Under the pieces are notes generated by a model. The model was not told the origin of the DNA. It worked only from the letters and a program-made list of their open reading frames with translations, and did no database searches. 24,000 nucleotides of DNA from Marinilactibacillus psychrotolerans. GTDB taxonomy: Bacteria; Bacillota; Bacilli; Lactobacillales; Carnobacteriaceae_A. Below are positions 6,348-23,231 of the stretch, in pieces (position 1 is the first letter of the stretch; the number at the start of each line of letters is the position of its first letter). The stretch covers positions 55,102-79,101 of the forward strand of contig NZ_FMZD01000004.1 in NCBI RefSeq assembly GCF_900101525.1, written 5' to 3'. A program made the position numbers and the translations under genes.

Positions 6348-6368
6348 AAAAATCCTCCTTATATAAAT

Positions 6369-7316: not shown

Positions 7317-7602
7317 GTTACTCCTCCTTTGTTTTGGGGAAATCGGATTACTCAGGATAGAGTGAAAGCCGAAGTTTATAATTATATTCTACATAATACT
7401 TATCTTGAAGTACATTATATTTATGTAAAGTTGAAACGCCAGAGCAAAGGTCAGAATGCTGTTTAGTTGAAGCTGTATTGAATGTTGATATAAGCAATTC
7501 GTTTAAGATTAATATGAACTTTACCTCATTCTCTTAGCATCCGCCATACAAGTCTGTTACAATATATGAGAAAACATATTTTGGAAGGAGCAACAATTCA
7601 TT

Positions 7603-8283: not shown

Positions 8284-8309
8284 AATTAGTTAGATTTGAG
8301 GATAAAGTA

Positions 8310-9086: not shown

Positions 9087-9095
9087 TTCTAAACA

Positions 9096-9152
9096 AAAAT
9101 CACACATCTTTTTATCATTTGTCAATCGAATGATAGGAAGGTGTGTGATTTT
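9096..9152. terminator. Compound hairpin between convergent genes, probably a bidirectional terminator
   Basis: 11-bp stem AAAATCACACA (9096-9106) / TGTGTGATTTT (9142-9152) enclosing an inner TCATT/AATGA hairpin. Confidence 0.5.
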
Positions 9153-9171
9153 ATGATATTAAGTATAATTT

Positions 9172-9672: not shown

Positions 9673-9783
9673 TTATCGCACCTCCTTTTTCAATTTTATT
9701 ATAGCATTATCAAAAAAAAATCGCACATCAAACCCTAATTAATGCGACATTGAAAGGTTACACCTACTGAACATAGGCTAGGA

Positions 9784-10188
9784 TCAGTTTGTGCGTTTGT
9801 TATGCCATTTCAGTACATTATAAACTTCCACATTTCGAATCAGATCGATATTCACCCTTTTAACTCGTCCATCTTTTAATTGTAATATAATCTTGTCCCC
9901 TAGATAGCCCATAACTAAGCAATGAACATCTGGGTAAAACTGTCCGTTTCTTAACACATTTGCTTGGATGGCAACGGGAGATTTTGTGAGATAAGCCTCG
10001 TAAAGGACTGTTGAAACCTCTTCTATTGTCATTTCTTCTTTAGCGGTGATGTCGCTTTTCTCATCTTCTGCTTTCATCATTTTCAATGCTTCAGAGTGAT
10101 CTGACAGCATCATTCCTTGCCATTTCTTTATTCCTCGATCTTTATACCCTAACTTATCTGGATTAAGTAGAATGACTTCTTCTGACAT
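9784..10188 (-). CDS. YolD-like protein (PF08863-type)
   Basis: The motif KDRGIKKWQGMMLSDHSEAL resembles the YolD-like signature. I prefer ATG 10188 (MSEEV..., RBS AAAGGGG) because the track's longer ORF (to 10242) runs into the promoter and LexA box. Confidence 0.7.
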   Translation of the reverse strand: MSEEVILLNPDKLGYKDRGIKKWQGMMLSDHSEALKMMKAEDEKSDITAKEEMTIEEVSTVLYEAYLTKSPVAIQANVLRNGQFYPDVHCLVMGYLGDKIILQLKDGRVKRVNIDLIRNVEVYNVLKWHNKRTN

Positions 10189-10229
10189 AGTGATTACCCC
10201 TTTATGCGAATGCATGTTTGTATAGTTTA

Positions 10230-10258
10230 ATAATAGGAACATTCGTTCGAATAGTCAA
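10230..10258 (-). promoter_or_regulatory. Sigma-A-type promoter TTGACT-N17-TATTAT with a LexA (Cheo/SOS) box in the spacer
   Basis: On the - strand the -35 TTGACT is at 10258-10253 and the -10 TATTAT at 10235-10230. The 17-nt spacer contains GGAACATTCGTTCG (10236-10249), which fits GAAC-N4-GTTC. Confidence 0.65.
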
Positions 10259-10439
10259 GTAGAATAATTTGAAATTCCTAACCCGTATCAAGAATGACTT
10301 AGAGGGCTCCTCGTTAGCGTCCTTAGCAATTTTTTTTGATGGGGTTTATTTTAGAAAAATAAGGGGAGCAATGATTGTTTTAAGCAGTTTCATCAACTAT
10401 ACTATGGGTAAACTGAGACTCAAGGAGGAGGAAATAAAA

Positions 10440-10877
10440 ATGAATAGAATCAATCTTATTGCCTTAGGCGTTCAAAATATGGAAAGAGCACTGACTTTTT
10501 ATAAAGGAATAGGGTTTAAATGTTATGAGGATTCTTCCAATCCACCTATCGTATTTTTTGATAATCAAGGGACGAAGTTAGAGTTGTTCCCTTTAAAAGA
10601 GCTGGCACAGGATATTAATGCGCAAACACCCCCGACTATCACACAACAAGGTTTTAATGGAATTACTTTTGCAATTAATACAAAAGAAAAAAGAGAAGTG
10701 GATGAACTGATGGCGTTAGTAAAAGAAAAGGGCGGTACGATAGCCAAAATACCCGAAACTGTATCGTGGGGTGGCTATAGTGGATATTTTCAAGACCCAG
10801 ATGGTTATTATTGGGAAGTGGCCTATGCAGATAGCTGGAAATTTGATGAGCATAATATGTTGGTGATTGAGCCGTGA
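10440..10877 (+). CDS. VOC/glyoxalase-bleomycin resistance family protein
   Basis: The C-terminal FQDPDGYYWEVA motif is typical of the VOC fold. ATG 10440 follows GGAGGAGG; the track's upstream extension from 10269 has no RBS. Confidence 0.8.
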   Translation: MNRINLIALGVQNMERALTFYKGIGFKCYEDSSNPPIVFFDNQGTKLELFPLKELAQDINAQTPPTITQQGFNGITFAINTKEKREVDELMALVKEKGGTIAKIPETVSWGGYSGYFQDPDGYYWEVAYADSWKFDEHNMLVIEP

Positions 10878-10911
10878 TATATAGAAAAGTTTAAAAAGAG
10901 GAGAAATAAGT

Positions 10912-11334
10912 ATGATAGAAATGAAAAGGGTAGGAATGGAAACACTAGATTCAATGGTCGAAAAAGTCTTTGCTGAACAAGATATAGATCATTTTGGAAG
11001 TATAGTGGAAACAAATAAAGAAAAAATAGCCATAGGAGCTTACTTAGACAAGAAGTTAGTCGGAGGAATCGTTGCGGATAAAGAGTACCAAACGATCCAT
11101 GTTTCCTTATTAGTGATTACTCAAGACGCTAGAGGATTATCAATAGGCAGTAAATTGTTGCAGGAAATTGAAACAATCGCAAAAGAAAAGGGCATCATTC
11201 ATATCACTCTTACAACGAGAAGTTATCAAGCAGTCGACTTTTATAAAAAGAATGGCTATACAGTTTTTGCAACCTTAGAAGATATGCCAATAGAAGGCGT
11301 AACAAAGTACTACTTTGATAAAAGACTAAAGTGA
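10912..11334 (+). CDS. GNAT-family N-acetyltransferase
   Basis: 140 aa with an acetyl-CoA-binding motif-A-like segment (ARGLSIGSKLLQEIE) and the tail AVDFYKKNGY. Confidence 0.85.
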   Translation: MIEMKRVGMETLDSMVEKVFAEQDIDHFGSIVETNKEKIAIGAYLDKKLVGGIVADKEYQTIHVSLLVITQDARGLSIGSKLLQEIETIAKEKGIIHITLTTRSYQAVDFYKKNGYTVFATLEDMPIEGVTKYYFDKRLK

Positions 11335-11478
11335 ATAAAGAGTTATCTTCTTAAATATGAATCTCTGTTAGTATTGTTTCTTTGGTCTTTTACTTACGCC
11401 TCTTCAAGTAAGTTTATACAGTAACGTCTTTAGGGTGAGAGTTATTTTGTTGCTTTTTTGTAGCTAAGGTTCTGTATT

Positions 11479-11961
11479 CTATTTTCCTTTTTCAATTTGA
11501 ATATTCGTTTCATTTTCAGTAGCACTTTGAGAAACTAATCTTGCTTGTTCTGCTTTTAATTTTTCTACTTCTTTTTTTAGCTGATTGATCTGCTCATCAA
11601 TATTTGCTAAAGTGACTACTTTGCTTTGTTCTTCCGGGGACATATTTTCTTGTTCTAATTGCTCTTTTTTATTTTGCAAAGCAGTACTATCGAATGTCAC
11701 CAAAATCTCTCCTTTTTTGACCTCTTGATTTTCTTCAAGATTATTTACTTTGATTTTTGTTTCTAGTGGCATATGTTGGTCTTCTGTTTTAGTTGCGGTT
11801 AGTTGAGCCGATGTCCGGATAAAAACTTCTTCTTTTGTAAAAGTCAAGAATAGACTAACCAAGAGAAAGAAAATAATTACAGAGTATAGCACCCACCGAT
11901 AGAATTTCTGATGTTGTTGACTATATATACCTGAGTGGTCAAGCCAGTCGTTCTTATGCAT
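11479..11961 (-). CDS. Bacteriocin ABC-transporter accessory protein (HlyD/ComB-like); N-terminal fragment only (160 aa)
   Basis: It has an N-terminal cytoplasmic stretch, one TM helix (WVLYSVIIFFLLVSLFLTF), the start of the lipoyl-like segment (EVKKGEILVTFDS) and the beginning of a coiled coil. It lies 18 nt downstream of the C39 ABC exporter gene. Typical family members are roughly three times longer. Confidence 0.7.
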   Translation of the reverse strand: MHKNDWLDHSGIYSQQHQKFYRWVLYSVIIFFLLVSLFLTFTKEEVFIRTSAQLTATKTEDQHMPLETKIKVNNLEENQEVKKGEILVTFDSTALQNKKEQLEQENMSPEEQSKVVTLANIDEQINQLKKEVEKLKAEQARLVSQSATENETNIQIEKGK

Positions 11962-11979
11962 TGTTTTGCCTTCCTTATC

Positions 11980-14133
11980 TTAAATTTCCCATAATTGTTG
12001 GTAGAGGCCCTCATTGTAACGCAAATCATCATGGGTACCTTGCTCCACCAATTTTCCTTCGTTAAGTACTAAAATTTGATTACAGACTTTGGCTATAGGT
12101 AAATGATGAGCAATAAAAATCAAGGTTTTCATTTCTAAATTTATCAGGTAGTCTAAAATTGTATGCTCTAAGAACCTATCCAGTCCACTGGTCGCCTCAT
12201 CTAATATTAGGACATCAGCGTCTTTCAATAAGGCACGAGCAATAGCCAATCTTTGCCGTTGACCACCAGAAAGATTGGTTCCGCCCTCTTCTATTATTGT
12301 GTCGTAACGTAAGGGTTGCTGGTTAATAAATGCGCTCAATTGAACTGCATCGCAAACTTCAACTATTCGTTCAAAGCTAGGTGAGATATCTAAGCTAAAG
12401 GTTAAATTCTCAATGATAGATCCACTAAAAAAGAATGATTCCTGGGGAATATAAGTTACTCGGTCGCGTAATTGATGAAAAGGAATGTCTAAATGGTTGA
12501 TATGACCATAACGAATAGTTCCTTCAGACGGGGAGTAAAAATTTACTAGTAATTTTGCTAAGGTAGATTTTCCCGAACCACTAACGCCAACAAAGGCAAC
12601 CTTACTAAATGGTGGAATAGTACAAGATAGATTACTCAAAGTTGGAGGATTCATTTTGTAAGAAAATGAAACATCTTCTAAGCTAATTCCCTGTTGAAAT
12701 GTTTGATCTGTAACAACACGATTAGGGTGTTGGTTAACTGACTCCGTTTCAATAGCAAGAATTTCATTTAAACGTTTGTTGGCAACTTGTGCTGTCTGCA
12801 TTTTTACCTGTAAATTAATGATATTTTGTAAAGGATCAGTAAAAAAAACAAGCAGCGCATTATAAGTAATAAGTTGACCTAAGCTAATCGTACCATCCAT
12901 GACGTAATAAGAACCTACCCATAAAATTAGTGCGCTACTGATTAACTGAATAGCGTGTTTGATGCCTTGTTGGATATTGTCTAAGGTTGACGTACGAAAA
13001 GACTTTTTCATCAATTTAACAAATTCTCGATCGACTAGATCATAGACTTTTTCTTCACCATTGTATGCCTTAATGGTTTCAATCCCCTTAAGGCTTTCAA
13101 TAATACTAGAATTTAAAGTTGCACCAGCAATCATTTCTTCTTGATTCGCTTTTTCATGGTTTTTGACAAAAGCTAAAATAGCAACTAAATAAAAAGGTAA
13201 CGAGGCTAAAGTGATCAAAAATAAGGTAACATTTTGAAAGGCTAAGGTAATCCCTACAATTACGACCATACCAATGTCTAAAAAAACAGACAAGGTGGCA
13301 CTTGCTAAAGCATCAATAATTTTATTAGCGTCAAGAAAACGAGAAATGATTTCTCCCGATTTACGAGTAGCAAAAAAATTCATTGGCAAAGAAAGTACGT
13401 GCTTAAAATATTGAAGCATTATCGTCATACTCATACGTTGGCCCAATATAACTAAGATATAATTTCGGCTATATTCAAATATGATACGAAAGAAGTAGAT
13501 AACAATTAATCCCACAGAGACAACGTTTAAAGCAGAACGGGCTTGGTTAGGAATAAAAAAATCGAGAATTCCTTGAAAATAGAAAGAACTTCCTATGCCA
13601 AAAGAAGTAATAAAAATTGATGCTAAAATAATATTAAAAACAAGCCCTTTTTGATGCCAAATAACTGGTAAAAAAGAATTTATGCTCGCAACTTTTTCTT
13701 TACTAGGAAAGTAAGTTTCTTTGGGAGTAGGCAATAATAAAATACCTGTCCATTCTTTAGCAAATTCTTCAATCGTTATTTTTACTTTCCCTATAGCTGG
13801 GTCATCAATTAATAAGGTCTTTCCTTTTATTCCATAAACAACTACATAATGCATATAGCTATTTTCAATTACAATATGTGCAATTAAAGGTAGTGGTAAC
13901 TCTTTTTCTCCCCACACATCATTATCCGCTTGAACAGCGGGGCAATCAAAAGATAAATGTTCAAATGTTTTCTTTAATCCAAAAGCTGTGGTTCCTTCTA
14001 AATCAGTTCCTGAAAAATCACGTAATTTGTGAATGGAAATTTCTGTCTTGTAATGTTTTAAAATCATGGATATACAAGAAACACCACAATCTTTTTCGTC
14101 TTGTTGCTGAATATGAGTAAAAAGTTTCATCAA
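11980..14133 (-). CDS. Bacteriocin-processing ABC exporter with an N-terminal C39 double-glycine peptidase domain
   Basis: C39 catalytic Cys context QQDEKDCGVSCISMILKHY, six-TM domain, Walker A GVSGSGKST, signature LSGGQRQRL, Walker B LILDEATSGLD. The start is TTG 14133 or ATG 14130. Confidence 0.95.
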   Translation of the reverse strand: MMKLFTHIQQQDEKDCGVSCISMILKHYKTEISIHKLRDFSGTDLEGTTAFGLKKTFEHLSFDCPAVQADNDVWGEKELPLPLIAHIVIENSYMHYVVVYGIKGKTLLIDDPAIGKVKITIEEFAKEWTGILLLPTPKETYFPSKEKVASINSFLPVIWHQKGLVFNIILASIFITSFGIGSSFYFQGILDFFIPNQARSALNVVSVGLIVIYFFRIIFEYSRNYILVILGQRMSMTIMLQYFKHVLSLPMNFFATRKSGEIISRFLDANKIIDALASATLSVFLDIGMVVIVGITLAFQNVTLFLITLASLPFYLVAILAFVKNHEKANQEEMIAGATLNSSIIESLKGIETIKAYNGEEKVYDLVDREFVKLMKKSFRTSTLDNIQQGIKHAIQLISSALILWVGSYYVMDGTISLGQLITYNALLVFFTDPLQNIINLQVKMQTAQVANKRLNEILAIETESVNQHPNRVVTDQTFQQGISLEDVSFSYKMNPPTLSNLSCTIPPFSKVAFVGVSGSGKSTLAKLLVNFYSPSEGTIRYGHINHLDIPFHQLRDRVTYIPQESFFFSGSIIENLTFSLDISPSFERIVEVCDAVQLSAFINQQPLRYDTIIEEGGTNLSGGQRQRLAIARALLKDADVLILDEATSGLDRFLEHTILDYLINLEMKTLIFIAHHLPIAKVCNQILVLNEGKLVEQGTHDDLRYNEGLYQQLWEI

Positions 14134-14166
14134 TGTACAGTGGTCCTTTCAAAATTAAGTTAATAT

Positions 14167-14907
14167 TTATTTCAATTTTTCTTTAATTAGTTTTGCTTTC
14201 CCTAATGCAAAGTTTCTTACTAAGTCAGATTCAAAATAAACAGCACGTTTTTTAAAATTAATTTCTTTTGCATTAATTAAATTCACTAAACAAGATCGAT
14301 TAATCTTGAATAAAGTAGGGTATTTTTTTTCTAATTCAACTAACTTTCCATAAAATTCATATTGACCATTTTTAGTATATAGAGATAATCTATGGGGAAG
14401 CTTAGAAGATTCTAAAAAATAAATATCTTGTAAATCAAGAGTAAATGTTTGAGACCCGATAGAAAATATAAATGCTTGGTTTAAACTAATTTTTGCTTCA
14501 TCAATTCTTTTCTGAGCAAGGAGTAGTAAATCTACAATTTCTGACCGATAGTTATCCAAAGGTTGATCTTTTATCACAAAACCTAATGTTTCCACACGTC
14601 TTTTAATAGTTAAAGGGATCATTTCATCATGTGTTGTAATGAAAATGATTTTTGCTTGGACATCTTGCGCACGTATTTTTTCCGCTAGATCAATTCCGGT
14701 TATAGTGTGGTTTAAATCAATATCTAAAAAGTAAATTCCCTGCTTAGGTTTAAACTTTTTTAAGTAATTTTCTACTTCGTCTGGGCTTTGTGTTTTTAAA
14801 CTGATTTGGAAAAGATCACTATGAAAAAGTGTGAAATTTTGAATGATTGTTTCAATCTGTTGTAGTTGAATAAGTTGATCTTCACAAATAATAATAGGAT
14901 AAGTCAT
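14167..14907 (-). CDS. LytTR-family (AgrA/ComE-like) response regulator
   Basis: N-terminal receiver domain (ICEDQ..., phospho-Asp context YFLDIDL) and a C-terminal LytTR DNA-binding domain (...INRSCLVNL...). Confidence 0.9.
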   Translation of the reverse strand: MTYPIIICEDQLIQLQQIETIIQNFTLFHSDLFQISLKTQSPDEVENYLKKFKPKQGIYFLDIDLNHTITGIDLAEKIRAQDVQAKIIFITTHDEMIPLTIKRRVETLGFVIKDQPLDNYRSEIVDLLLLAQKRIDEAKISLNQAFIFSIGSQTFTLDLQDIYFLESSKLPHRLSLYTKNGQYEFYGKLVELEKKYPTLFKINRSCLVNLINAKEINFKKRAVYFESDLVRNFALGKAKLIKEKLK

Positions 14908-14920
14908 AATAGTTCCTTTC

Positions 14921-16210
14921 TTACCACATCAGGATAATACTAGTGATGAATGTAGAGTTTTTCATTTTGTATTGAATAAACATATTTTGAGTTTTTTCAT
15001 TTATTTCTTGAATCGTGTTCATTCCTAATCCTTTATGATCCGCTTTTGTTGAAACACCCTTTTCCATCAACTTTCTGATAGAAAGGTTAGTTCCTTTATA
15101 GCTATTTTCAAGAAGAAATTCAAGCTGTGAGTCATCTTGATAAATCATAAGAGATAATTTCCGTTCTTCGCTTTCTTTAGAGGCTTCTATTGCATTATCA
15201 AGAACAATACCCAATATTCTTACACAATCAAAAATCGGAATAGGGACTAGTTCAATAGTTTGGTTACATTCTAATTGAATATCTAACTGATTTTCATTTG
15301 CTTGATAAATTTTCGAAATAAAAAGACTTTTTAAATATGAATTTTTTATATTCTTTAATTGTTGACTGCTACTTGATATATCCTTTACAAAATAATGATT
15401 AGAATACTTATCTAATTCATGGACTTGTTTCGAAAAATCTATGTCTTTTTTTAAGTAAGAGATTTCTTTTAAACTGAGTAATAAATTTTTGTAATCATGT
15501 TTAAACTTATTTAGTTTTTCTTGACTTTGTTCTAACTGATCAGTGTATCTCTTTAAATAAATAAGTTCTTGTTCTTTCAACCGTTGCTCATATGTTTCTT
15601 TTTGCTTCTTAGTTGTTCGAACACCTAAAATAAAAATAAATATGGTCTGCACGACAAGGAAAACTAAAATTCCTAAAATGAATTGATCAAATACTTTATA
15701 TTGATGCGCAGTATATGATATGAAGAAAGAAATTCCCCATAGGTAAATCATGCACATAAAAGTTGTAATAGAACTATAGCTTTTAATGATTTTCTGAATA
15801 CTTACCTTTTTGTATAACAAAACAAATATAGTTAGCAAGAAACATTCAAAAATTATTTGTATAATTACATAGTCATAATCATTAACTCCTTGGAAAAATC
15901 TGGGTATCATCAATAATGAGCTAATGATTGATATACTATAACTTACGAGTAAACTTAGCATGAGCTTATTTAAAAGGACAATTTTCTTGTTCCCGTTCTC
16001 TCTCAAGAAAAAATAACTACTAATTATCGGTATCAAATCAGAAAAATCGGTAAATAATTCGATAAAAAAGGTAATTGGAATAAGCACAATTACCTTTGAA
16101 TATTTACTAATTGTAGCTTCATCTTTAGTAACAAAGAATATTAAGAAGTAAAAAATAAAAATATTTATTAACATACGTAGTAAGTAAGCCTTTGTATCAA
16201 TGATAATCAA
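14921..16210 (-). CDS. Peptide-pheromone sensor histidine kinase (HPK10, AgrC/ComD-like)
   Basis: Polytopic N-terminal half with multiple TM helices. H-box FKHDYKNLL, N-box LGIVLDNAIEA and G-box region HKGLGMN. TTG start at 16210 follows GGGAGG. Confidence 0.85.
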   Translation of the reverse strand: MIIIDTKAYLLRMLINIFIFYFLIFFVTKDEATISKYSKVIVLIPITFFIELFTDFSDLIPIISSYFFLRENGNKKIVLLNKLMLSLLVSYSISIISSLLMIPRFFQGVNDYDYVIIQIIFECFLLTIFVLLYKKVSIQKIIKSYSSITTFMCMIYLWGISFFISYTAHQYKVFDQFILGILVFLVVQTIFIFILGVRTTKKQKETYEQRLKEQELIYLKRYTDQLEQSQEKLNKFKHDYKNLLLSLKEISYLKKDIDFSKQVHELDKYSNHYFVKDISSSSQQLKNIKNSYLKSLFISKIYQANENQLDIQLECNQTIELVPIPIFDCVRILGIVLDNAIEASKESEERKLSLMIYQDDSQLEFLLENSYKGTNLSIRKLMEKGVSTKADHKGLGMNTIQEINEKTQNMFIQYKMKNSTFITSIILMW

Positions 16211-16252
16211 GAAAATACCTCCCTGATTAAATTATACGAAAGTTAAAGATTA

Positions 16253-16396
16253 TTAGCAGTTTTTGAAAAAAGAAAAGACACATTGTGCTAAATTAGATGA
16301 GGGGGCCCCTTTAGTTACTGATTTATTACCGCCTCGTATTTGTTTTAATTTTTTTTCAGAACACTCTTCAATTTTTAAGTCTTTTTTATCGTTCAC
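16253..16396 (-). CDS. Induction peptide (bacteriocin-like pheromone) precursor, 47 aa, with a double-glycine leader
   Basis: Absent from the ORF track (<60 aa). My manual translation is (M)NDKKDLKIEECSEKKLKQIRGG / NKSVTKGAPSSNLAQCVFSFFKNC. GTG start at 16396-16394 lies 7 nt after a GGAGGG RBS (16409-16404, - strand). The stop is 42 nt upstream of the kinase gene, the canonical IP-HK-RR order. Confidence 0.8.
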   Translation of the reverse strand: MNDKKDLKIEECSEKKLKQIRGGNKSVTKGAPSSNLAQCVFSFFKNC

Positions 16397-16460
16397 TTTT
16401 ATTCCCTCCAATTTTTTTACAGAGATAGTATGCCATACATTTAGTTATAAAACGAAAAAC

Positions 16461-16491
16461 TTTCCTGAAACGCTAGTAAATTATTCCTGAA
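16461..16491 (-). promoter_or_regulatory. Pair of LytTR-type direct repeats (TTCAGGAAT / TTCAGGAAA, 22-bp phasing) for the IP-HK-RR-ABC operon promoter
   Basis: On the + strand these read ATTCCTGAA (16483-16491) and TTTCCTGAA (16461-16469). A candidate -10 (CATACT/TACTAT, - strand, 16425-16432) lies about 28-30 nt beyond the proximal repeat. Confidence 0.6.
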
Positions 16492-16516
16492 CAATATAAC
16501 CGATAGAAAGTATAGG

Positions 16517-16547
16517 TTAAGGAAGAGTATCGTTGTAGTTCAGGAAT
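16517..16547 (+). promoter_or_regulatory. Pair of LytTR-type direct repeats (TTAAGGAAG / TTCAGGAAT, 22-bp phasing) for the bacteriocin gene promoter
   Basis: Repeats lie at 16517-16525 and 16539-16547. A candidate extended -10 TGgTACAGT (16573-16581) is 28 nt after the proximal repeat; an alternative -10 is TATTAT at 16587-16592. Confidence 0.6.
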
Positions 16548-16623
16548 AAACATTCCACGAATAAAAAAATTGTGGTACAGTCAGCGTATTATCAAAATAT
16601 TTTATGAAGGAGCGTGTGATTAC

Positions 16624-16809
16624 ATGCAAAAGGTTAAAGAACTTAGCGTTAAAGAAATGCAACAAACTAAAGGAGGGAAATATTATGGAAATGGTGTTTC
16701 TTGTAATAAAAAAGGATGCACTGTAGATTGGGGAAAAGCTATTGGAATTATCGGAAATAATGCAGCAGCAAATTGGGCTACAGGCGGAGCCGCTGGTTGG
16801 AATAAATGA
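16624..16809 (+). CDS. Class IIa (pediocin-like) prebacteriocin: 18-aa double-glycine leader plus 43-aa mature peptide
   Basis: [18 protein letters not shown] / [43 protein letters not shown]. It has the YGNGV pediocin box, the Cys9/Cys14 disulfide pair and a GG cleavage site. AAGGAG RBS at 16607-16612. The track's 16570 start is an upstream extension. Confidence 0.95.
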
Positions 16810-16850
16810 TAACTAAAGATACTCATTTTTATATTGTAAAAAAATAAAGA

Positions 16851-16891
16851 AAATACCCATCCATGGTATTACATAACATAGATGGGTATTT
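16851..16891 (+). terminator. Hairpin between the bacteriocin and immunity genes (11-bp stem, 19-nt loop), a possible attenuating terminator
   Basis: AAATACCCATC (16851-16861) pairs with GATGGGTATTT (16881-16891); only a short T-rich tail follows. Confidence 0.45.
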
Positions 16892-17066
16892 ATACTTGCA
16901 CGGGTCTTTTTAGGCAAAGTTTGATATCGAACATGGGTTATAGTTATATTTTATAGTTTCAACAATTATGTTCTACTAGTCAAGCTAAGGCATTTTCAAC
17001 GGCATGTAAAGAAATATACAATATCAATCAAAATTAAAAGTATATTGAATTTAGGAAGGATATTTT

Positions 17067-17363
17067 ATGAGCAAATTAAAATGGTTTTCCGGAGGAAATG
17101 AACGGGCGAAACAAGCAGAAAAAATTATGACTGATTTATTAGATGATCTAAAAACAGACTTAGGTAACGAGTCGCTACAAAAAGTGTTAGAGAATTATCT
17201 TGAAGAGTTAAAACAAAAGAGCGCTTCTGTTCCTATGATTTTGAGTCGAATGAACTTAGATATTTCTAAAGCAATCAGAAATGATCGAGCTGTTTTATCA
17301 GACTATCAATCAAAAAAATTAAAAGAGTTGACTTCCGTATCCAATATTAGATATAAATATTAA
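17067..17363 (+). CDS. Class IIa bacteriocin immunity protein (four-helix-bundle, EntA/PisI/MunC-type)
   Basis: 98 aa. The start MSKLKWFSGG and end SNIRYKY closely resemble my recollection of the mundticin/piscicolin immunity proteins. It lies downstream of the bacteriocin gene; AGGAAGGA RBS. Confidence 0.9.
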   Translation: MSKLKWFSGGNERAKQAEKIMTDLLDDLKTDLGNESLQKVLENYLEELKQKSASVPMILSRMNLDISKAIRNDRAVLSDYQSKKLKELTSVSNIRYKY

Positions 17364-17437
17364 TAGTGGATACAAAGGTATGACTCCAATATAATAGTTT
17401 GTCAGTGTGATAAAATGAATCGTACTGTAGTCTATGC

Positions 17438-17487
17438 AAAAAAAACATCTGATTCCTTTAATTTAAAGGAATCAGATGTTTTTTAGG
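17438..17487. terminator. Bidirectional intrinsic terminator shared by the immunity gene and ssrA
   Basis: Near-perfect long palindrome AAAAAACATCTGATTCCTTTAA / TTAAAGGAATCAGATGTTTTTT, flanked by an A-run and a T-run. Confidence 0.8.
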
Positions 17488-17508
17488 TTACGATTGAACT
17501 TACACAAT

Positions 17509-17875
17509 GGAGTTGAGGGGAGTCGAACCCCTGTCCAGACACATTGGCACTCAAGCCTCTACGTTCATAGTTACACTATTAGATTTCGCTCAACATTAGC
17601 CGCATAACAGGCGTCATGTGTCGCTAGTCTGGTAATCTCTTCTTATTCTTACAGACGGAAAGAATAAGCGTATCCCACTTAATTATAGGACCCAAACGTG
17701 ACACGTGGGCGATGCCAGTTCGGATCACGCTAATAAGCTGTTATTACGCAGCTAAAGCGTAAGTGTTATTATTATTGTTTGCAGTTATATTTAACTGTGA
17801 CGTTGGTATGCAGTCTCGTCACCTGCAGAACGCAACTCAAGCTCAATCTATGCCTGTCGAATCCGTAACAACCCC
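17509..17875 (-). ncRNA. ssrA: tmRNA (SsrA), about 367 nt; tag reading frame GCA AAC AAT AAT AAT AAC ACT TAC GCT TTA GCT GCG TAA TAA
   Basis: On the - strand the 5' end reads GGGGTTGTTACGGATTCGACAGG and the 3' end GGACAGGGGTTCGACTCCCCTCAACTCCA. The acceptor stem has a G3:U pair (Ala identity). The UUAAAUAUAACU element sits directly before the resume codon, as I recall for Bacillus tmRNA. The tag is (A)ANNNNNTYALAA with two stops (17741-17782). CCA is not encoded. Confidence 0.95.
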
Positions 17876-17932
17876 GATATAGAATAAAACTTGAAAGCAA
17901 ATGGATCGTAGAGAACGACCATTTCTAAAAGC

Positions 17933-17941
17933 ATTATAGCA
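17933..17941 (-). promoter_or_regulatory. Candidate extended -10 (TGcTATAAT) for ssrA
   Basis: The + strand ATTATAGCA at 17933-17941 reads TGCTATAAT on the - strand, about 58 nt upstream of the mature 5' end. This would imply a processed precursor. Confidence 0.4.
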
Positions 17942-18048
17942 CAAATTGTTTAGAAATGAAAGTCTGTTCGCTTATCTAAACAATAATCGTGTGATTTACA
18001 TAGACGCTTGTTATAATGAATGAAAAGGTAAGAAAGGTGTACTGATAA

Positions 18049-18783
18049 ATGGATTCAAAAATAACTCAATTAAAAAAATATATAGATGAAGCAGAAATTG
18101 TTGCTTTTTTTGGTGGGGCAGGCGTTTCTACTGAAAGTGGTTTACCTGATTATAGATCACGAAAGGGTCTGTATACAGAAATGGAAGGACAGAAATTAAA
18201 TCCTCAAGAAGTAATGAGTCATAAATATCTGATAGAACATCCTCAAGCTTTCTTTAACCGACGACCTAAAAAAGATAGGGTTGAACCCGAACCAAATGAT
18301 GCACATAAAGTATTGGCCCAAATGGAACAAGCTGGGAAAGATATACGTGTAATCACTCAAAATGTAGACGGTCTTCACCAGAAAGCAGGTCATCGGTTTG
18401 TATTAGAATTACATGGTCATAGTAGAACCTGGTATTGTATGGAATGTTCCAGAGTTTACAAGCCAGAAGAAGTTGAAAAAGATGAACTGAATATACCAAG
18501 ATGCCCAATCGAACAGGGAATCGTCAGACCAAACATTGTATTATTTGGAGAGAACCCAGACAGAGGTATTTTAGAAAAAAGTAAAGAAACGATTAGTAAA
18601 GCACAATTACTAATTATTGCCGGAACATCACTGACGGTAAATCCAGCAAAAAACCTGATCCATCGTTTCAAAGGGAAACATGTAGTAGTCATCAATAATG
18701 AAGAGATAGATACAAGAAATCTAAAAGTCGACCTATATATAGAAGGAAAAGTCGGAGAAACCTTTAAAGCTATAAATGAATAA
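18049..18783 (+). CDS. cobB: NAD-dependent protein deacylase (Sir2 family)
   Basis: GAGVSTESGLPDYRS NAD-binding motif, QNVDGLH catalytic region and Zn ribbon CxxC...C (CMECS...RCP). An extended -10 TGtTATAAT lies upstream. Confidence 0.9.
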   Translation: MDSKITQLKKYIDEAEIVAFFGGAGVSTESGLPDYRSRKGLYTEMEGQKLNPQEVMSHKYLIEHPQAFFNRRPKKDRVEPEPNDAHKVLAQMEQAGKDIRVITQNVDGLHQKAGHRFVLELHGHSRTWYCMECSRVYKPEEVEKDELNIPRCPIEQGIVRPNIVLFGENPDRGILEKSKETISKAQLLIIAGTSLTVNPAKNLIHRFKGKHVVVINNEEIDTRNLKVDLYIEGKVGETFKAINE

Positions 18784-18784
18784 T

Positions 18785-18840
18785 AAAAATACGCTCAGTA
18801 TATAGAGAAATTATTTTCTATACATACTGAGCGTATTTTT
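18785..18840. terminator. Bidirectional intrinsic terminator between the sirtuin gene and the convergent 116-aa gene
   Basis: Perfect 17-bp stem AAAAATACGCTCAGTAT (18785-18801) / ATACTGAGCGTATTTTT (18824-18840). Confidence 0.8.
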
Positions 18841-19191
18841 TTAGTTGCTTATTATTCTGTTTGAACCTTCATCAGAATCATAGTGATAATGCTTATACAT
18901 TTGTGCTAACAGCATAGGATCTGAACTGACTTTATGCATCAGATTAGCAGCAGCCTGCAGAGACTGCTCTTTTTTTGCAGCTCTAGCTTCGTCTGTTTTT
19001 GTACACACGGTCAAATCATCTAATACATTATGAAAATCTTCAAGGAAATTCTTAAACCCATGACTATCTTCCAGCAATACATTTTTTACGGATTGATTTT
19101 TACGATGGAGATAAATTAGGTAGTCTTTTACCGTCATTCCCATGTTTTCAGCGAATGCTACGATCTCTTGATATTCTGTATTTTCTTTCAT
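18841..19191 (-). CDS. Hypothetical protein (116 aa); no family recognised
   Basis: ORF with a plausible RBS (GGTAGAGG) and an operator-like GTTAATA repeat cluster upstream. I recognise no motif. Confidence 0.5.
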   Translation of the reverse strand: MKENTEYQEIVAFAENMGMTVKDYLIYLHRKNQSVKNVLLEDSHGFKNFLEDFHNVLDDLTVCTKTDEARAAKKEQSLQAAANLMHKVSSDPMLLAQMYKHYHYDSDEGSNRIISN

Positions 19192-19642
19192 CCAGATAAG
19201 CCTCTACCTTCTTTCGTTAATAATCATATAGTTAATAAAATATTAACGGAATTATAATATTGGTATTAAATATATTACAATTCTAAAATTTATAAGTGAA
19301 TTTGTAAATAAAAAAAGTGAATAATTAAAATTCTATAATAAATAACAATACCAATTTTATAATTATTCTATTCAAATATAAACAATGAATAAGAAATAAT
19401 AAATAATGAATGTAAGGCATAAAACTCTAATAAGGTAATAGATACGGGAAACTCAACGTTTGAAATTAATAGATATGGAGATATTGAGTAACTAAAAACA
19501 GGAAAATACTAACATAAAGTAACTTGTTCAAAAAAGTGTCACATTTATTCTGCAATCGATTTCAAATCGCTAGAAAAACGTGTGTATAACATATTAAATG
19601 CGAATTATAAGTATTGTTTATTGAATTTACTGACAATTACCA

Positions 19643-19671
19643 TTGACTTTATCATTTAATAAATATAAAAT
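19643..19671 (+). promoter_or_regulatory. Candidate sigma-A promoter for the amidohydrolase/permease operon (TTGACT-N17-TAAAAT)
   Basis: -35 TTGACT at 19643-19648 and -10 TAAAAT at 19666-19671, about 85 nt upstream of ATG 19755. Confidence 0.4.
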
Positions 19672-19754
19672 TTGAAAAAGATTATAAAAATGTGTGTATT
19701 CTAATTTTATAGATTTAAATACATAATTCATTAGACAGAAGGAGTGGAGGATAA

Positions 19755-20981
19755 ATGGGATATAAAATTTGGGAAGAAGCGTTAGCTGCTAATTATAAAA
19801 CGACTGTTTCATGGAGAAGACAGTTACATGAGAATCCAGAACCTTCTTTCGAAGAATATGAAACCCGGAAATATATTGCGGATAAATTAAAATCGTTTGG
19901 GTATGAAGAAATTGAGGAAGAAGTAGGGGGTGGCGGAATTGTTGCTTATCTGAGAGGAAAGCAAGAAGGACCAACAATTGGATTTAGAGCAGACTTTGAT
20001 GCTTTAAAAATTCAAGAAGCTACCGGATTATCTTTTTCATCTAAAAATCCCGGTGTTATGCATGCCTGTGGACATGATGGACATACAGCAACCTTGCTTA
20101 GTGTAGCCAAGGTAATGAAAGAGTATCAGTCTAGTTTATCTGGCACAGTAAAATTTATCTTTCAACATGCAGAAGAAGTTTTACCAGGTGGCGGAAAGGC
20201 AATGGTTGATGCAGGTGTATTAGATGATGTGGATTTCATATATGGACTTCATCTGAGATCACCTCTTGAATACGGTAAAGTTACTTATTGTTCTGGTTAC
20301 GCTATGGCTGCTCCGGACTTCTTTGAAATTAAGATACAGGGTAAAGGTGGACATGCAGCGCATCCTAATGCCACAGTTGATTCAGTTGTGATCGCCTCTT
20401 ATGTAGTGAATCAGCTCCAATCAATCATTAGCCGTAAAAAAGATCCGACTAAATCAGGGGTCCTAACATTCTCTACCCTTAAAGCCGGGGATGGAGCAAA
20501 TAATGTTATTGCGGACAAAGCTTTTCTCAAAGGAACAGTTCGTACATTTGATCCTGAAGTAAGAAATATGATAGAAGATAAAATCAAATTTATGACAGAA
20601 CAAATTTGTAAAGCACATGATGCAACCTGTGAAGTCAATTATGGACGTGGCTATCCAGCGCTTTATAATCATGAAACAGAAACTGAAATAATTGCTGATT
20701 TATTTAAAGAAACATTTGGCGAAGAAACGGTTGAATCAACCCCGTTGCGTATGGGAGGAGAAGATTTTGCTTACTTCTTAGAAGAAAAGCCTGGTTCATT
20801 TTTCTTCGTTAATTCAGGTAATGAAGAAAAGGGAATCATTTATCCTCACCATCACCCAAAATTTGACTTTGATGAACGTGCACTCTTGTTAGGTGGTAAG
20901 TGCTTCTTAGCCATCATTGATCATTACTTGACCGAGAAAGAAACGCATAAAGTTAAAGCATCATCAGTTGTGGGAGAATAG
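19755..20981 (+). CDS. M20D-family amidohydrolase (N-acyl-L-amino acid amidohydrolase / hippurate hydrolase-like), paralog 1
   Basis: MHACGHDGH metal-binding motif, conserved QHAEE and GGEDFAYF, and HHHPKF near the C-terminus. Confidence 0.9.
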   Translation: MGYKIWEEALAANYKTTVSWRRQLHENPEPSFEEYETRKYIADKLKSFGYEEIEEEVGGGGIVAYLRGKQEGPTIGFRADFDALKIQEATGLSFSSKNPGVMHACGHDGHTATLLSVAKVMKEYQSSLSGTVKFIFQHAEEVLPGGGKAMVDAGVLDDVDFIYGLHLRSPLEYGKVTYCSGYAMAAPDFFEIKIQGKGGHAAHPNATVDSVVIASYVVNQLQSIISRKKDPTKSGVLTFSTLKAGDGANNVIADKAFLKGTVRTFDPEVRNMIEDKIKFMTEQICKAHDATCEVNYGRGYPALYNHETETEIIADLFKETFGEETVESTPLRMGGEDFAYFLEEKPGSFFFVNSGNEEKGIIYPHHHPKFDFDERALLLGGKCFLAIIDHYLTEKETHKVKASSVVGE

Positions 20982-21027
20982 TCAATTCGTACTAAATGAA
21001 TAAAGTATAGAAAGAAGGAGAAGGATC

Positions 21028-22215
21028 ATGGCATATGAAACATGGGCAGATGAATTAAAACAAAATTTTGATGAAACCGTCAGCTGGAGAAGGCATTTAC
21101 ATGAACATCCAGAACCTTCATTTGAAGAAAAAGAAACAGCACAGTTTATTTTGGCAAATTTAAAAGAATTTGGGGTAGAAGACATTCAAACGAATGTGGG
21201 TAATGGATATGGAATTGTCGCAAGAATTAAGGGCGCCCATCCTGGACCAACTATTGCGTTACGTGCTGACTTTGATGCCTTAAGAATAAAAGAAGAAGCG
21301 AATGTTCCTTTCAAATCAAAAAAAGAAGGATTCATGCATGCTTGTGGGCATGACGGACATACGGCTTCACTCTTGAGCGTCGCAAAAGTGTTAGTTAATC
21401 ATAAAGATGAATTAAAAGGGAATGTTGTTTTACTTCACCAGAATGCTGAAGAAGTTTTACCTGGAGGAGCCAAGTCAATGGTCGAAGCAGGCGCTTTGGA
21501 AGATGTGGACTATGTATTTGGTATTCATTTAGGAGCTACGCAGGAATTAGGGAAAGTCTACTATAATTATCGTTTTGGATCAGCCAATTCAGATACCTTT
21601 AGATTAAATATTCAAGGAAAAGGTGGACATGGTGCAGCGCCACATGATACGCATGATGCTTTGACGATTGGCACACAAATCGTGTCAAGCTTACAGCAGA
21701 TTGTAAGTCGTTTAGCTGATCCCGTTAAACCGGCTGTTTTGACCTTTGCAGGGTTTAATGCTGGTGGTGAAGCATATAACATCATTGCAGATACAGCTGA
21801 GATCAAAGGAACGATTCGAACGATGCATAAAGAAATACAGGATCTGATGGAGAGTAAATTAAAATCAATTAGCACAGGGATTGCAGAAGCTTTTGATGCA
21901 ACATTAGCTATTGATTATGTTAGAGGTTATCCATCGATTCAAAATGATCCAGCACAAGTGGAAAGAATTAAACAAAAATTTTCAACCGTATTTACAGAAG
22001 AGCTTATGGAAGAAGAAGTAGAAGGATCTATGGGGGGAGAAGATTTTGCTTATTTCTTAAAAGAAAAGCCAGGGGCATTTTTAAGAGTGGGGGCAAAATT
22101 TCCAGAAGATGAGTCTCCATATCCACATCATCATCCTAAATTTGTGATTCATGAAGACTCTTTATTAAGATCTGGAGAAGTATTTTTAGCCATTATTGAT
22201 GAATACCTTAGTTAG
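21028..22215 (+). CDS. M20D-family amidohydrolase, paralog 2 (tandem duplicate)
   Basis: Same motif set (MHACGHDGH, QNAEE, GGEDFAYF, HHHPKF). It is colinear with paralog 1 and roughly half the residues look identical by eye. Confidence 0.9.
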   Translation: MAYETWADELKQNFDETVSWRRHLHEHPEPSFEEKETAQFILANLKEFGVEDIQTNVGNGYGIVARIKGAHPGPTIALRADFDALRIKEEANVPFKSKKEGFMHACGHDGHTASLLSVAKVLVNHKDELKGNVVLLHQNAEEVLPGGAKSMVEAGALEDVDYVFGIHLGATQELGKVYYNYRFGSANSDTFRLNIQGKGGHGAAPHDTHDALTIGTQIVSSLQQIVSRLADPVKPAVLTFAGFNAGGEAYNIIADTAEIKGTIRTMHKEIQDLMESKLKSISTGIAEAFDATLAIDYVRGYPSIQNDPAQVERIKQKFSTVFTEELMEEEVEGSMGGEDFAYFLKEKPGAFLRVGAKFPEDESPYPHHHPKFVIHEDSLLRSGEVFLAIIDEYLS

Positions 22216-22263
22216 AAATTTAAAGTATAAGATACGTTTGTACGAAGCAAAGGGGAGGAAAAT

Positions 22264-23214
22264 ATGCAAAAATTTATCACGAAACGACTGCTGACTGCTA
22301 TTCCAGTATTGATTATGATTTCGATGGCTGCTTTTCTAATGGTGAATTTGACGCCTGGGAATCCAGCGGAATTATACGTAATGCCAGATGCGACTGCAGA
22401 ACAAATTGCTGCTACTGAACGTGCTCTGGGATTAGACCAACCCATGCCAATTCAATATGTTCGTTGGTTAGGAAGAGCCTTAACACTGGATTTAGGCAAT
22501 TCATTTTCAACTAGATATCCTGTATTGCCCATTATCCTTTCTAGATTAATTCCAACTGTTGTTCTGATGGGCTCAACATTATTGTTTTCATATATCATTG
22601 CGATTCCGCTAGGGATTATTAGTGCAAGAAAACAAGGAACTTGGATTGATAATCTACTGACAGGAGGATCCTTTATTGGTGTATCAATCCCTAACTTTTT
22701 CCTGGGACTTGGATTGATTTATATCTTTGCTGTTCGGCTAGGGTGGTTACCGACTGGGGGAATGACAGAATTAGGTGGAAATGGCGGTTTCTTTGAAGTA
22801 CTCAAACATCTTGTCTTACCCGTTATTGTCCTTTCAGCATTCTATATAGCCAACATGTCGAGATATATGCGTTCCACAATGATACAAGTTTATGGAGAAA
22901 ATTATATGCGGACAGCTACAGCAAAAGGATTAGCTTCAAAAACGATTTTAACCAAACATGGATTAAGAAACGCTATGATTCCAGTTATTACAATTATTGG
23001 AACGGATTTGCCTAGATTGGTCGGGGGAGCAATCGTTACAGAGCAAATTTTCCAGTGGCCGGGTTTAGGACGACTAACGATCACGGCGATTCAGCAACGG
23101 GACTATCCGATCTTGATGGCCGTTACGATGCTATCTGCTGTAGTCGTTTTAGTCGCTAACTTGTTAGTAGATATTATGTATGCCGTAGTTGATCCGCGAA
23201 TTAAATATAACTAA
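22264..23214 (+). CDS. Peptide/nickel (Opp/Dpp-type) ABC transporter permease, OppB/DppB-like
   Basis: 316 aa with N-terminal MQKFITKRLL...IPVL, the EAA-loop region (YMRTATAKGL) and C-terminal VDPRI. Confidence 0.9.
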   Translation: MQKFITKRLLTAIPVLIMISMAAFLMVNLTPGNPAELYVMPDATAEQIAATERALGLDQPMPIQYVRWLGRALTLDLGNSFSTRYPVLPIILSRLIPTVVLMGSTLLFSYIIAIPLGIISARKQGTWIDNLLTGGSFIGVSIPNFFLGLGLIYIFAVRLGWLPTGGMTELGGNGGFFEVLKHLVLPVIVLSAFYIANMSRYMRSTMIQVYGENYMRTATAKGLASKTILTKHGLRNAMIPVITIIGTDLPRLVGGAIVTEQIFQWPGLGRLTITAIQQRDYPILMAVTMLSAVVVLVANLLVDIMYAVVDPRIKYN

Positions 23215-23231
23215 TGAAAGGGAGAGAGTAA

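What the first reader, a model, noticed from the sequence alone, without database searches (positions are those of the whole stretch)
16253..16396. Unannotated 47-aa induction-peptide gene (GTG start) upstream of the kinase
Reverse-strand translation gives (M)NDKKDLKIEECSEKKLKQIRGG followed by NKSVTKGAPSSNLAQCVFSFFKNC. The first part is a double-glycine leader with Ile-4, Leu-7 and GG. The 24-aa product ends in CVFSFFKNC. That Cys-X7-Cys tail is very like the pheromones I recall for enterocin A (EntF, ...CVFSLFKKCN) and carnobacteriocin (CbnS, ...CVFSFFKKC). The gene is missed by a 60-aa ORF cutoff and by ATG-only callers. A + strand shadow ORF (16263-16490) covers it in the track. Its position (GGAGGG RBS, 42 nt before the kinase gene) is canonical for autoinducer genes.
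Basis: partly seen in the sequence, partly recalled or inferred. Interest (0 to 1): 0.75.

Follow-up and report, generated by a model that had tools for sequence, protein, structure and literature searches.

The report
Known bacteriocin induction-peptide gene (pisN ortholog)
The small reverse-strand gene is real and encodes the secreted signalling peptide that switches on an anti-Listeria bacteriocin cluster, but it is an ordinary member of a well-studied family and public databases already annotate it.

Summary
Window 16253-16396 (-) is a 47-codon ORF with a GTG start, a GGAGGG site 7 nt upstream, and a stop 42 nt before the kinase gene. It has a 23-aa double-glycine leader and a 24-aa product, NKSVTKGAPSSNLAQCVFSFFKNC.

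It scores 69.2 bits (cutoff 35) against NCBIfam NF033383, 'EntF family bacteriocin induction factor'. It is 83% identical to PisN, the piscicolin 126 induction factor of Carnobacterium maltaromaticum. The whole locus is a piscicolin-126-type cluster with the same gene order and 80-93% protein identity. Two divergent promoters share one repeat geometry.

The gene is not unannotated. The window is Marinilactibacillus psychrotolerans, and the exact peptide is in RefSeq as WP_091760629.1 under that family name.

Export of the peptide, and so autoinduction in this strain, is uncertain.

Verdict: interpretation supported, already known, low interest.

The parts
16253..16396 (-). Induction-factor precursor gene (pisN ortholog), 47 codons plus stop. 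Leader codons are 16328-16396 (23 aa, ending GG). The mature 24-mer NKSVTKGAPSSNLAQCVFSFFKNC is 16256-16327. The stop is 16253-16255.
   Evidence: sequence. NF033383, 69.2 bits against cutoff 35. DUF5841, 48.6 bits; identical to WP_091760629.1; 83% identity to C. maltaromaticum PisN, with ATG at the same position in orthologs.
16404..16409 (-). Shine-Dalgarno GGAGGG, 7 nt before the GTG start.
   Evidence: Invariant in all four aligned orthologous intergenic regions.
16427..16491 (-). Putative pheromone-regulated promoter of the pisN-K-R-T operon. Direct repeats TTCAGGAA lie at 16484-16491 and 16462-16469 (22 bp start to start). They are followed by N26, TGG (16433-16435) and the -10-like hexamer CATACT (16427-16432).
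   Evidence: 2 composite matches in the window against 0.03 expected; geometry; proximal repeat and -10 region invariant in orthologs. Matches the '10-bp imperfect direct repeats separated by 12 bp' of CbnR-dependent promoters (PMC1634752). Function is inferred.
16517..16581 (+). Divergent putative regulated promoter of the bacteriocin-immunity operon. It has the same geometry: TTAAGGAA (16517-16524), N14, TTCAGGAA (16539-16546), N26, TGG, TACAGT (16576-16581).
16624..16809 (+). Class IIa (pediocin-like) bacteriocin precursor, 61 aa, a piscicolin 126 variant. The leader is [18 protein letters not shown]. The mature peptide is [43 protein letters not shown].
   Evidence: PF01721, 44.6 bits; 87-92% identity to piscicolin 126 and 126.2 precursors; the only other double-glycine peptide in the window.
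17067..17363 (+). Bacteriocin immunity protein (pisI ortholog), 98 aa.
   Evidence: PF08951 EntA_Immun; 86-87% identity to C. maltaromaticum PisI.
14921..16210 (-). AgrC-like (HPK10-type) sensor histidine kinase (pisK ortholog), 429 aa. It has a hydrophobic N-terminal half, His238 in FKHDYKN, and N and G boxes.
   Evidence: HATPase_c_5; AgrC model E 3.6e-33; motifs, hydrophobic segments; 80-81% identity to PisK; sensor half 76-79%.
14167..14907 (-). LytTR-family response regulator (pisR ortholog), 246 aa, with Asp62 as phospho-acceptor.
   Evidence: Response_reg + LytTR; AgrA model E 5.6e-40; 91-93% identity.
11980..14133 (-). Peptide cleavage/export ABC transporter with an N-terminal C39 peptidase domain (pisT ortholog), 717 aa. 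The DCG Cys (Cys16), the His in MHYVVV (His95), Walker A and B and the LSGGQ signature are all present.
   Evidence: TIGR01193, 838 bits against cutoff 524. (87-88% identity).
11479..11961 (-). Truncated transport accessory gene (pisE remnant), 160 aa. Only residues 1-118 (11608-11961) are homologous to the 326-aa PisE. The HlyD/LcnD_C part is missing.
   Evidence: TIGR01000 matched 1-115 of 457, 117.7 bits, below the cutoff of 258.85. BLASTP covers 1-118 only; tblastn finds no other fragment in the window; the same 160-aa gene is in the public assembly.

Best explanation
The ORF is the pisN ortholog of Marinilactibacillus psychrotolerans. It is the precursor gene of an EntF-family peptide pheromone ('induction factor') and the first gene of a pisN-pisK-pisR-pisT-(pisE') operon in a horizontally acquired piscicolin-126-type class IIa bacteriocin cluster.

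Mechanism, by analogy with the tested CbnS/CbnK/CbnR system:
1. The 47-aa precursor is made at a low basal level.
2. The C39 peptidase domain of the ABC transporter cuts after Gly-Gly during export. This releases the cationic 24-mer NKSVTKGAPSSNLAQCVFSFFKNC. The two Cys residues could form a disulfide.
3. Above a threshold concentration, the multi-pass N-terminal half of the AgrC-like kinase senses the peptide. The kinase autophosphorylates on His238 and transfers the phosphate to Asp62 of the LytTR regulator.
4. The regulator binds the paired TTCAGGAA-type repeats in both divergent promoters. This raises transcription of its own operon (positive feedback) and of the bacteriocin and immunity genes.

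Shown here: the gene, its family, its orthology, the intact catalytic motifs of its partners, and the shared promoter geometry.
Inferred: transcription, cleavage, export, sensing and induction.

Because the accessory transport gene is truncated, whether the loop still closes in this strain is open. I put it at roughly even odds.
For: Family and orthology:
- NF033383 'EntF family bacteriocin induction factor', 69.2 bits against cutoff 35, E 2.6e-19.
- Pfam DUF5841 over the full length, 48.6 bits.
- 83% and 79% identity to C. maltaromaticum peptides that their sources name 'piscicolin 126 induction factor'.
- An exhaustive profile search finds 17 representative clusters. All of the short ones have a GG leader and a C-terminal C-x7-C, and they include EntF-like and CbaX/CbnS-like sequences.

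Synteny:
- The layout immunity<-bacteriocin<-|->IF(47)->HK(429)->RR(246-248)->ABC(716-717)->accessory is identical in the C. maltaromaticum and Listeria loci, including the 42-nt IF-kinase gap.
- Protein identities are 80-93%.

Gene model:
- Orthologs have ATG at the GTG position, and the coding frame is enriched in synonymous changes.
- No terminator lies between the peptide gene and the kinase gene.

Partners:
- Catalytic and phospho-relay residues are present in the kinase, regulator and transporter.

Promoters:
- Two divergent promoters share the geometry repeat-N14-repeat-N26-TGG-hexamer. There are 2 matches against 0.03 expected, and the motifs are conserved in orthologs.

Literature:
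- Synthetic CS peptide activates CbnK/CbnR-dependent promoters that carry two 10-bp repeats 12 bp apart (PMC1634752).
- pisN-pisK-pisR is described as a three-component system (PMC2040187; PMC12634766).
- Piscicolin 126 production is controlled by induction peptide concentration (Gursky 2006, cited; the paper itself is not held).
Against: - There is no expression, cleavage or activity data for this organism.
- The accessory gene retains only PisE residues 1-118 of 326. Reviews list the accessory protein among the four genes needed for class IIa production and for export of the inducer (PMC3546714).
- A survey of M. psychrotolerans cheese isolates found no clear link between putative bacteriocin clusters and antilisterial activity (PMC11545730).
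- Promoter elements are consensus-level inferences. The generic sigma-70 scan did not single them out.
Confidence: 0.88

Rival explanations
1. The gene is genuine but the circuit is dead or decaying in this strain. Without a complete accessory protein, the ABC transporter cannot export and process the precursor. No autoinducer then accumulates and the bacteriocin stays silent. The gene is a relic of a transferred cluster.
For: - The accessory gene is truncated to 118 homologous residues, and no remnant lies elsewhere in the window.
- The accessory protein is listed as required for production and inducer export (PMC3546714).
- Split accessory genes are common in C. maltaromaticum assemblies too (174+126 or 181+126 aa in 3 of the 4 loci shown).
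- Several strains that carry known clusters show no activity (PMC9504619).
- No clear link was found between cluster and phenotype in M. psychrotolerans isolates (PMC11545730).
Against: - All the other genes are intact, with catalytic motifs preserved, and the peptide ORF is open.
- The divercin V41 locus works without an accessory gene (PMC3546714).
- An accessory protein could be encoded elsewhere in the genome, outside the window.
Confidence: 0.4
2. The 24-mer is itself an antimicrobial peptide (a small class IId bacteriocin), rather than, or as well as, a signal.
For: - It is a cationic peptide (calculated pI 9.4) with a double-glycine leader.
- It gives weak, sub-threshold hits to Bacteriocin_IIc (13.4 bits) and bactofencin-type models (16 bits).
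- From general knowledge, some induction peptides such as plantaricin A have antimicrobial activity.
Against: - The bacteriocin-family hits fall far below their cutoffs and cover only the leader. The induction-factor model scores 69 bits.
- No dedicated immunity gene sits next to it.
- It occupies the autoinducer slot directly upstream of the kinase, as in the cbn and pis loci.
Confidence: 0.05
3. The ORF is a chance open frame, or the real gene is the 75-aa + strand ORF 16263-16490.
For: The ORF is short, with a non-ATG start, in AT-rich DNA where open frames are common. The + strand ORF is longer.
Against: - HMM E-values are 1e-12 to 2.6e-19 for the - frame.
- The + strand ORF has no family hit and is interrupted by stops in all orthologous loci.
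- Orthologs keep the - frame open with an ATG start.
Confidence: 0.01

Closest known systems
PisN, induction factor of the piscicolin 126 / 126.2 clusters (pisAINKRTE) of Carnobacterium maltaromaticum
   Same: - 47-aa precursor of the same length, with the same 23-aa leader type and 79-83% identity.
- The mature peptide is identical at 20-21 of 24 positions.
- Gene order is identical, as is the 42-nt gap to the kinase.
- The promoter region aligns over its full length, and the proximal repeat, -10 region and SD are invariant across all four aligned sequences.
   Different: - GTG instead of ATG start.
- Four substitutions in the mature peptide against the piscicolin 126 PisN (T5/I, A8/N, S10/A, N23/K).
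- The host genus is Marinilactibacillus.
- The accessory gene is truncated to 160 aa.
- The cluster lies next to ssrA rather than at the C. maltaromaticum site.
CS (CbnS) and CbaX pheromones of the carnobacteriocin B2/BM1 and A systems (CbnS-CbnK-CbnR)
   Same: - 24-aa mature peptide ending CVFSFFK(K/N)C, with double-glycine processing.
- The gene sits directly upstream of an HPK10 kinase and a response regulator.
- Target promoters have two imperfect repeats 22 bp apart (PMC1634752).
   Different: - Only 11 of 24 mature residues are identical.
- The CbnS leader is 17 aa, against 23 aa here with an N-terminal extension and a Cys at -12.
EntF, enterocin A/B induction factor of Enterococcus faecium
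   Same: It is the name-giver of the NCBIfam family that the peptide matches. It shares the core G-x-P-x-SNL-x-x-CVFS-x-FK-x-C.
   Different: - 12 of 24 positions are identical.
- EntF is a 25-mer with an extra C-terminal Asn.
- Its leader is shorter.

Membership tests
EntF family bacteriocin induction factor (NCBIfam NF033383 / Pfam DUF5841) | Profile score above the curated cutoff | tested here: met
   NF033383 scores 69.2 bits against cutoff 35. PF19159 scores 48.6 bits against cutoff 25, matching 1-47 of 48.
EntF family bacteriocin induction factor (NCBIfam NF033383 / Pfam DUF5841) | Double-glycine leader (GG at -2/-1, hydrophobic residues at -4 and -7) followed by a peptide of about 24-25 aa | tested here: met
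   The leader reads ...CSEKKLKQIRGG|N..., with I at -4, L at -7 and S at -11. The GG column is conserved in the 15-sequence alignment.
EntF family bacteriocin induction factor (NCBIfam NF033383 / Pfam DUF5841) | C-terminal Cys-X7-Cys motif (CVFSxFKxC) | tested here: met
   The motif here is CVFSFFKNC. The first Cys is invariant and the last is nearly invariant across the family alignment.
EntF family bacteriocin induction factor (NCBIfam NF033383 / Pfam DUF5841) | The mature peptide induces bacteriocin production at low concentration | not testable with these tools
   This needs the synthetic peptide and a reporter or producer assay. It has been shown only for relatives: CS in PMC1634752, and PisN in Gursky 2006, as cited.
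Three-component peptide-pheromone regulatory system of class II bacteriocins (IF + HPK10 kinase + LytTR regulator) | The peptide gene lies immediately upstream of, and in the same orientation as, an AgrC-like kinase and a LytTR response regulator | tested here: met
   There is a 42-nt gap to the kinase and no terminator. The kinase matches HATPase_c_5 and the AgrC model. The regulator matches Response_reg + LytTR and the AgrA model. H238 and D62 are present.
Three-component peptide-pheromone regulatory system of class II bacteriocins (IF + HPK10 kinase + LytTR regulator) | Regulated promoters carry a pair of imperfect direct repeats about 21-22 bp apart, upstream of the -35/-10 region | tested here: met
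   Two divergent sites share identical geometry, with 2 found against 0.03 expected. They are conserved in orthologs. Binding was not tested.
Three-component peptide-pheromone regulatory system of class II bacteriocins (IF + HPK10 kinase + LytTR regulator) | A dedicated C39-peptidase ABC transporter processes and exports the peptide | tested here: met
   TIGR01193 scores 838 bits. The C39 Cys and His and the ATPase motifs are present.
Three-component peptide-pheromone regulatory system of class II bacteriocins (IF + HPK10 kinase + LytTR regulator) | A complete transport accessory protein (LcnD/PisE type) accompanies the ABC transporter | tested here: not met
   Only residues 1-118 of the 326-aa PisE are encoded. 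TIGR01000 scores 117.7 bits, below its cutoff of 258.85. This bears on whether the system works in this strain, not on the peptide's family.
Piscicolin 126-type cluster (pisAINKRTE) | Same gene content and order, with high identity in every product | tested here: met
   Identities are IF 79-83%, HK 80-81%, RR 91-93%, ABC 87-88%, bacteriocin 87-92% and immunity 86-87%. The order is identical. The exception is the truncated pisE.

The most novel reading that the evidence does not exclude
The strain may be a 'listener' rather than a producer. With a crippled exporter but an intact kinase, regulator, bacteriocin and immunity genes, it could respond to the nearly identical PisN pheromones (20-21 of 24 residues) released by Carnobacterium maltaromaticum. 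The same could hold for Listeria that carry the mobile piscicolin 126.2 element, in shared cold, salty food niches. On sensing the foreign signal, the strain would switch on its immunity gene. That would be cross-genus eavesdropping on a bacteriocin quorum signal.
Probability: 0.08. Interest if true: 0.55.

Novelty: already known. Interest (0 to 1): 0.12.

Why it matters
The practical value is small. It confirms that 60-aa cutoffs and ATG-only callers miss real, functionally central peptide genes, and that a careful read of raw sequence can recover them. For M. psychrotolerans, a smear-cheese and seafood bacterium studied for antilisterial effects, the cluster encodes a piscicolin-126-like bacteriocin and its switch. 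The truncated accessory gene may explain why genotype and antilisterial phenotype do not match. None of this changes what is known about peptide-pheromone control of class IIa bacteriocins.

Tried and rejected
- Megablast of 11900-17400 against plasmids gave only partial hits of 77-88% identity: the ABC transporter in E. faecalis plasmids and the immunity gene in a C. viridans plasmid. The locus is not a known plasmid.
- Genome-collection scans led nowhere. The alignment A3 was too diverse to search with. Scans with A1 and with the kinase returned nothing useful, so I have no species-wide distribution from that collection.
- I looked for an att-like duplication of the tmRNA 3' end to delimit an island and found none.
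- I looked for a terminator or attenuator between the peptide and kinase genes. There is none. A small hairpin over the kinase SD and start codon is not significant (z -0.96).
- The generic sigma-70 scan is no better than shuffles in this AT-rich DNA (31 found against 28.4 expected). The promoter calls therefore rest on the repeat geometry and on conservation.
- Gursky et al. 2006, the primary PisN experiment, is not held in the library. It is cited only through other papers.
- The alternative TTG start at 16411 (52 aa) is rejected. It overlaps the SD, and orthologs have ATG at the GTG position.
- A scan of all small ORFs for further double-glycine peptides found only the bacteriocin and this peptide.

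Full report
**Observation**

On the reverse strand, 16396-16253 reads GTG AAC GAT ... TGC TAA. It translates to (M)NDKKDLKIEECSEKKLKQIRGG NKSVTKGAPSSNLAQCVFSFFKNC.
- GGAGGG lies at 16409-16404, 7 nt before the GTG.
- The stop ends at 16253, and the kinase TTG start is at 16210, so the gap is 42 nt.
- The leader has Ile at -4, Leu at -7, Ser at -11 and Gly-Gly at -2/-1. The 24-aa product has Cys16-X7-Cys24.
- The + strand ORF 16263-16490 exists. It has no Pfam match and is broken by stop codons in every orthologous locus. It is a shadow frame.

All the descriptive points in the finding are correct.

**More than chance**

- The 47-aa product scores 69.2 bits (curated cutoff 35, E 2.6e-19) against NCBIfam NF033383, 'EntF family bacteriocin induction factor'.
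- It scores 48.6 bits (cutoff 25) end to end against Pfam DUF5841.
- Orthologs in Carnobacterium maltaromaticum and Listeria keep the frame open. They have ATG exactly where the window has GTG.
- Of the six frames, the proposed one has the largest share of synonymous codon changes.
- The longer TTG-initiated version (52 aa, from 16411) overlaps the Shine-Dalgarno site and is not supported.

**Identity and source**

Window 8253-24000 is identical, with 0 mismatches in 15,748 bases, to Marinilactibacillus psychrotolerans assembly GCA_019650195.1, contig BKBI01000008.1. The exact 47-aa protein is already in public databases under four accessions, including WP_091760629.1, named 'EntF family bacteriocin induction factor'. 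It is a called gene in that assembly. 'Unannotated' therefore holds only for the first stage's ORF track.

The closest relatives are C. maltaromaticum peptides that their sources name 'piscicolin 126 induction factor' (PisN), at 83% and 79% identity. In the mature peptide, 20-21 of 24 residues match PisN, 12 of 24 match EntF and 11 of 24 match CS/CbnS.
- CS = SKNSQIGKSTSSISKCVFSFFKKC (PMC1634752).
- EntF = AGTKPQGKPASNLVECVFSLFKKCN (PMC9238271).

An exhaustive profile search of 1.84 billion representative proteins found 17 clusters at E < 1e-3. The short ones all share a GG leader and the C-terminal C-x7-C motif.

**Surroundings**

The window holds a complete piscicolin-126-type cluster in the canonical layout.

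| Gene | Coordinates | Product |
|---|---|---|
| pisA-like | 16624-16809 + | class IIa bacteriocin precursor |
| pisI-like | 17067-17363 + | immunity protein |
| pisN-like | 16253-16396 - | induction factor |
| pisK-like | 14921-16210 - | AgrC-like kinase |
| pisR-like | 14167-14907 - | LytTR response regulator |
| pisT-like | 11980-14133 - | C39-peptidase ABC transporter |
| pisE remnant | 11479-11961 - | truncated accessory protein |

- Gene order and the 42-nt gap between peptide and kinase genes are the same in C. maltaromaticum and Listeria loci.
- Product identities are 80-93%. The flanking housekeeping-type genes (His_Phos_1, HAD) are only about 50% identical.
- G+C falls to 0.275-0.30 across 14-17 kb.
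- These three points argue that the cluster was acquired horizontally.
- The kinase has His238 in FKHDYKN and its N and G boxes. The regulator has Asp62. The transporter has the C39 Cys and His and all the ATPase motifs.
- Only two double-glycine peptides occur in the window: the bacteriocin and this peptide.

**Promoters**

The 227-bp divergent intergenic region carries two sites with identical geometry.
- Minus strand: TTCAGGAA-N14-TTCAGGAA-N26-TGG-CATACT (16491-16427).
- Plus strand: TTAAGGAA-N14-TTCAGGAA-N26-TGG-TACAGT (16517-16581).

The composite repeat pattern occurs twice in the window against 0.03 expected. The proximal repeat, the -10-like element and the SD are invariant in four orthologous regions. 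[quoted passage not shown] No terminator separates the peptide and kinase genes. Co-transcription is therefore likely but remains inferred.

**Mechanism**

The precursor is processed after Gly-Gly and exported by the C39 ABC transporter. The 24-mer accumulates outside the cell. The AgrC-like kinase senses it and phosphorylates the LytTR regulator. The regulator activates both promoters, which gives positive feedback plus bacteriocin and immunity expression.

This mechanism is established for relatives. Synthetic CS activates CbnK/CbnR-dependent promoters (PMC1634752). pisN-K-R is described as a three-component system (PMC2040187, PMC12634766). Piscicolin 126 production depends on induction-peptide concentration (Gursky 2006, cited). 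In this organism, every step after the sequence itself is inferred.

**Caveat**

The accessory gene encodes 160 aa, of which only residues 1-118 match the 326-aa PisE. The HlyD/LcnD_C part is absent and no remnant exists elsewhere in the window. The converging GNAT gene follows 145 bp later.

Reviews list the accessory protein among the genes needed for class IIa production and inducer export, although the divercin V41 locus lacks one (PMC3546714). Split accessory genes also occur in 3 of the 4 C. maltaromaticum loci shown. A survey of M. psychrotolerans isolates saw no clear link between bacteriocin clusters and antilisterial activity (PMC11545730). The peptide gene is genuine, but whether the loop closes in this strain is uncertain.

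**Comparison and novelty**

This is a member of the EntF/CbnS/PisN induction-factor family and the ortholog of pisN. All sequence-level defining features tested here were met. The only feature not met is the completeness of the accessory protein, which concerns the system and not the peptide's family. The gene, its family name and its start are already in RefSeq. The finding is already known and of low interest.

The least ordinary reading still open is a receiver-only or eavesdropping role, given the damaged exporter and near-identical pheromones in co-occurring Carnobacterium and Listeria. It has low probability.

Noticed in passing
window 17505-17875 (-): A tmRNA (ssrA) gene with tag peptide ANNNNNTYALAA (Rfam 186.8 bits). 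Its 3' end faces the immunity gene. tmRNA 3' ends are classic island integration sites, but I found no att-like direct repeat and no integrase in the window.
   Followed up: partly
window 11479-11961 (-), junction near 11608: The transport accessory gene (pisE-like) is truncated. Homology to the 326-aa PisE stops at residue 118 and the rest is missing. The converging GNAT acetyltransferase gene (10912-11334 +) follows 145 bp later.
   Followed up: yes
window 11479-17363 versus flanks 7603-9086: Cluster proteins are 80-93% identical to those of C. maltaromaticum, while the neighbouring His_Phos_1 and HAD hydrolase genes are only about 50% identical. G+C drops to 0.275-0.30 at 14-17 kb. This points to recent horizontal transfer of the cluster within Carnobacteriaceae.
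   Followed up: partly
L007, L008, L009: 2342-5799, next to the cluster at 6032-12416: In C. maltaromaticum and in Listeria, the piscicolin 126.2-type cluster sits beside an integrase, a Rep_trans replication initiator, a DUF3173 gene and an HTH gene. L008 has an internalin-N gene next door, and NCBI names the peptide for L. monocytogenes. This looks like an integrative mobilizable element carrying an anti-listerial bacteriocin and its immunity gene into Listeria itself. I found no paper describing it.
   Followed up: partly
L001, L002, L004: 11434-12414: In 3 of the 4 C. maltaromaticum piscicolin 126 loci shown, the accessory gene pisE is split into two ORFs (174 or 181 aa, plus 126 aa). In L003 and L007 it is a single 326-aa ORF. 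Accessory-gene decay may be common and could explain non-producing carriers.
   Followed up: no
window 16213-16235 (-): A small hairpin (AAUCAGGGAGG...UUCUUGAUU) would sequester the kinase Shine-Dalgarno site and TTG start. The fold is not better than shuffles (z -0.96), so it is probably fortuitous.
   Followed up: yes
window 9172-9672 (-), 9784-10242 (-), 18841-19191 (-): Three ORFs of 166, 152 and 116 aa have no significant Pfam family. They lie between the cluster and the housekeeping genes, and their function is unknown.
   Followed up: partly
window 16328-16396 (-), leader codons: The PisN-like subfamily (DUF5841) has a 23-aa leader with a 6-7-residue N-terminal extension and a conserved Cys at -12. 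The shorter-leader family members (CbnS/CbaX-like sequences) have Leu or Ile at that position. The significance is unknown.
   Followed up: no
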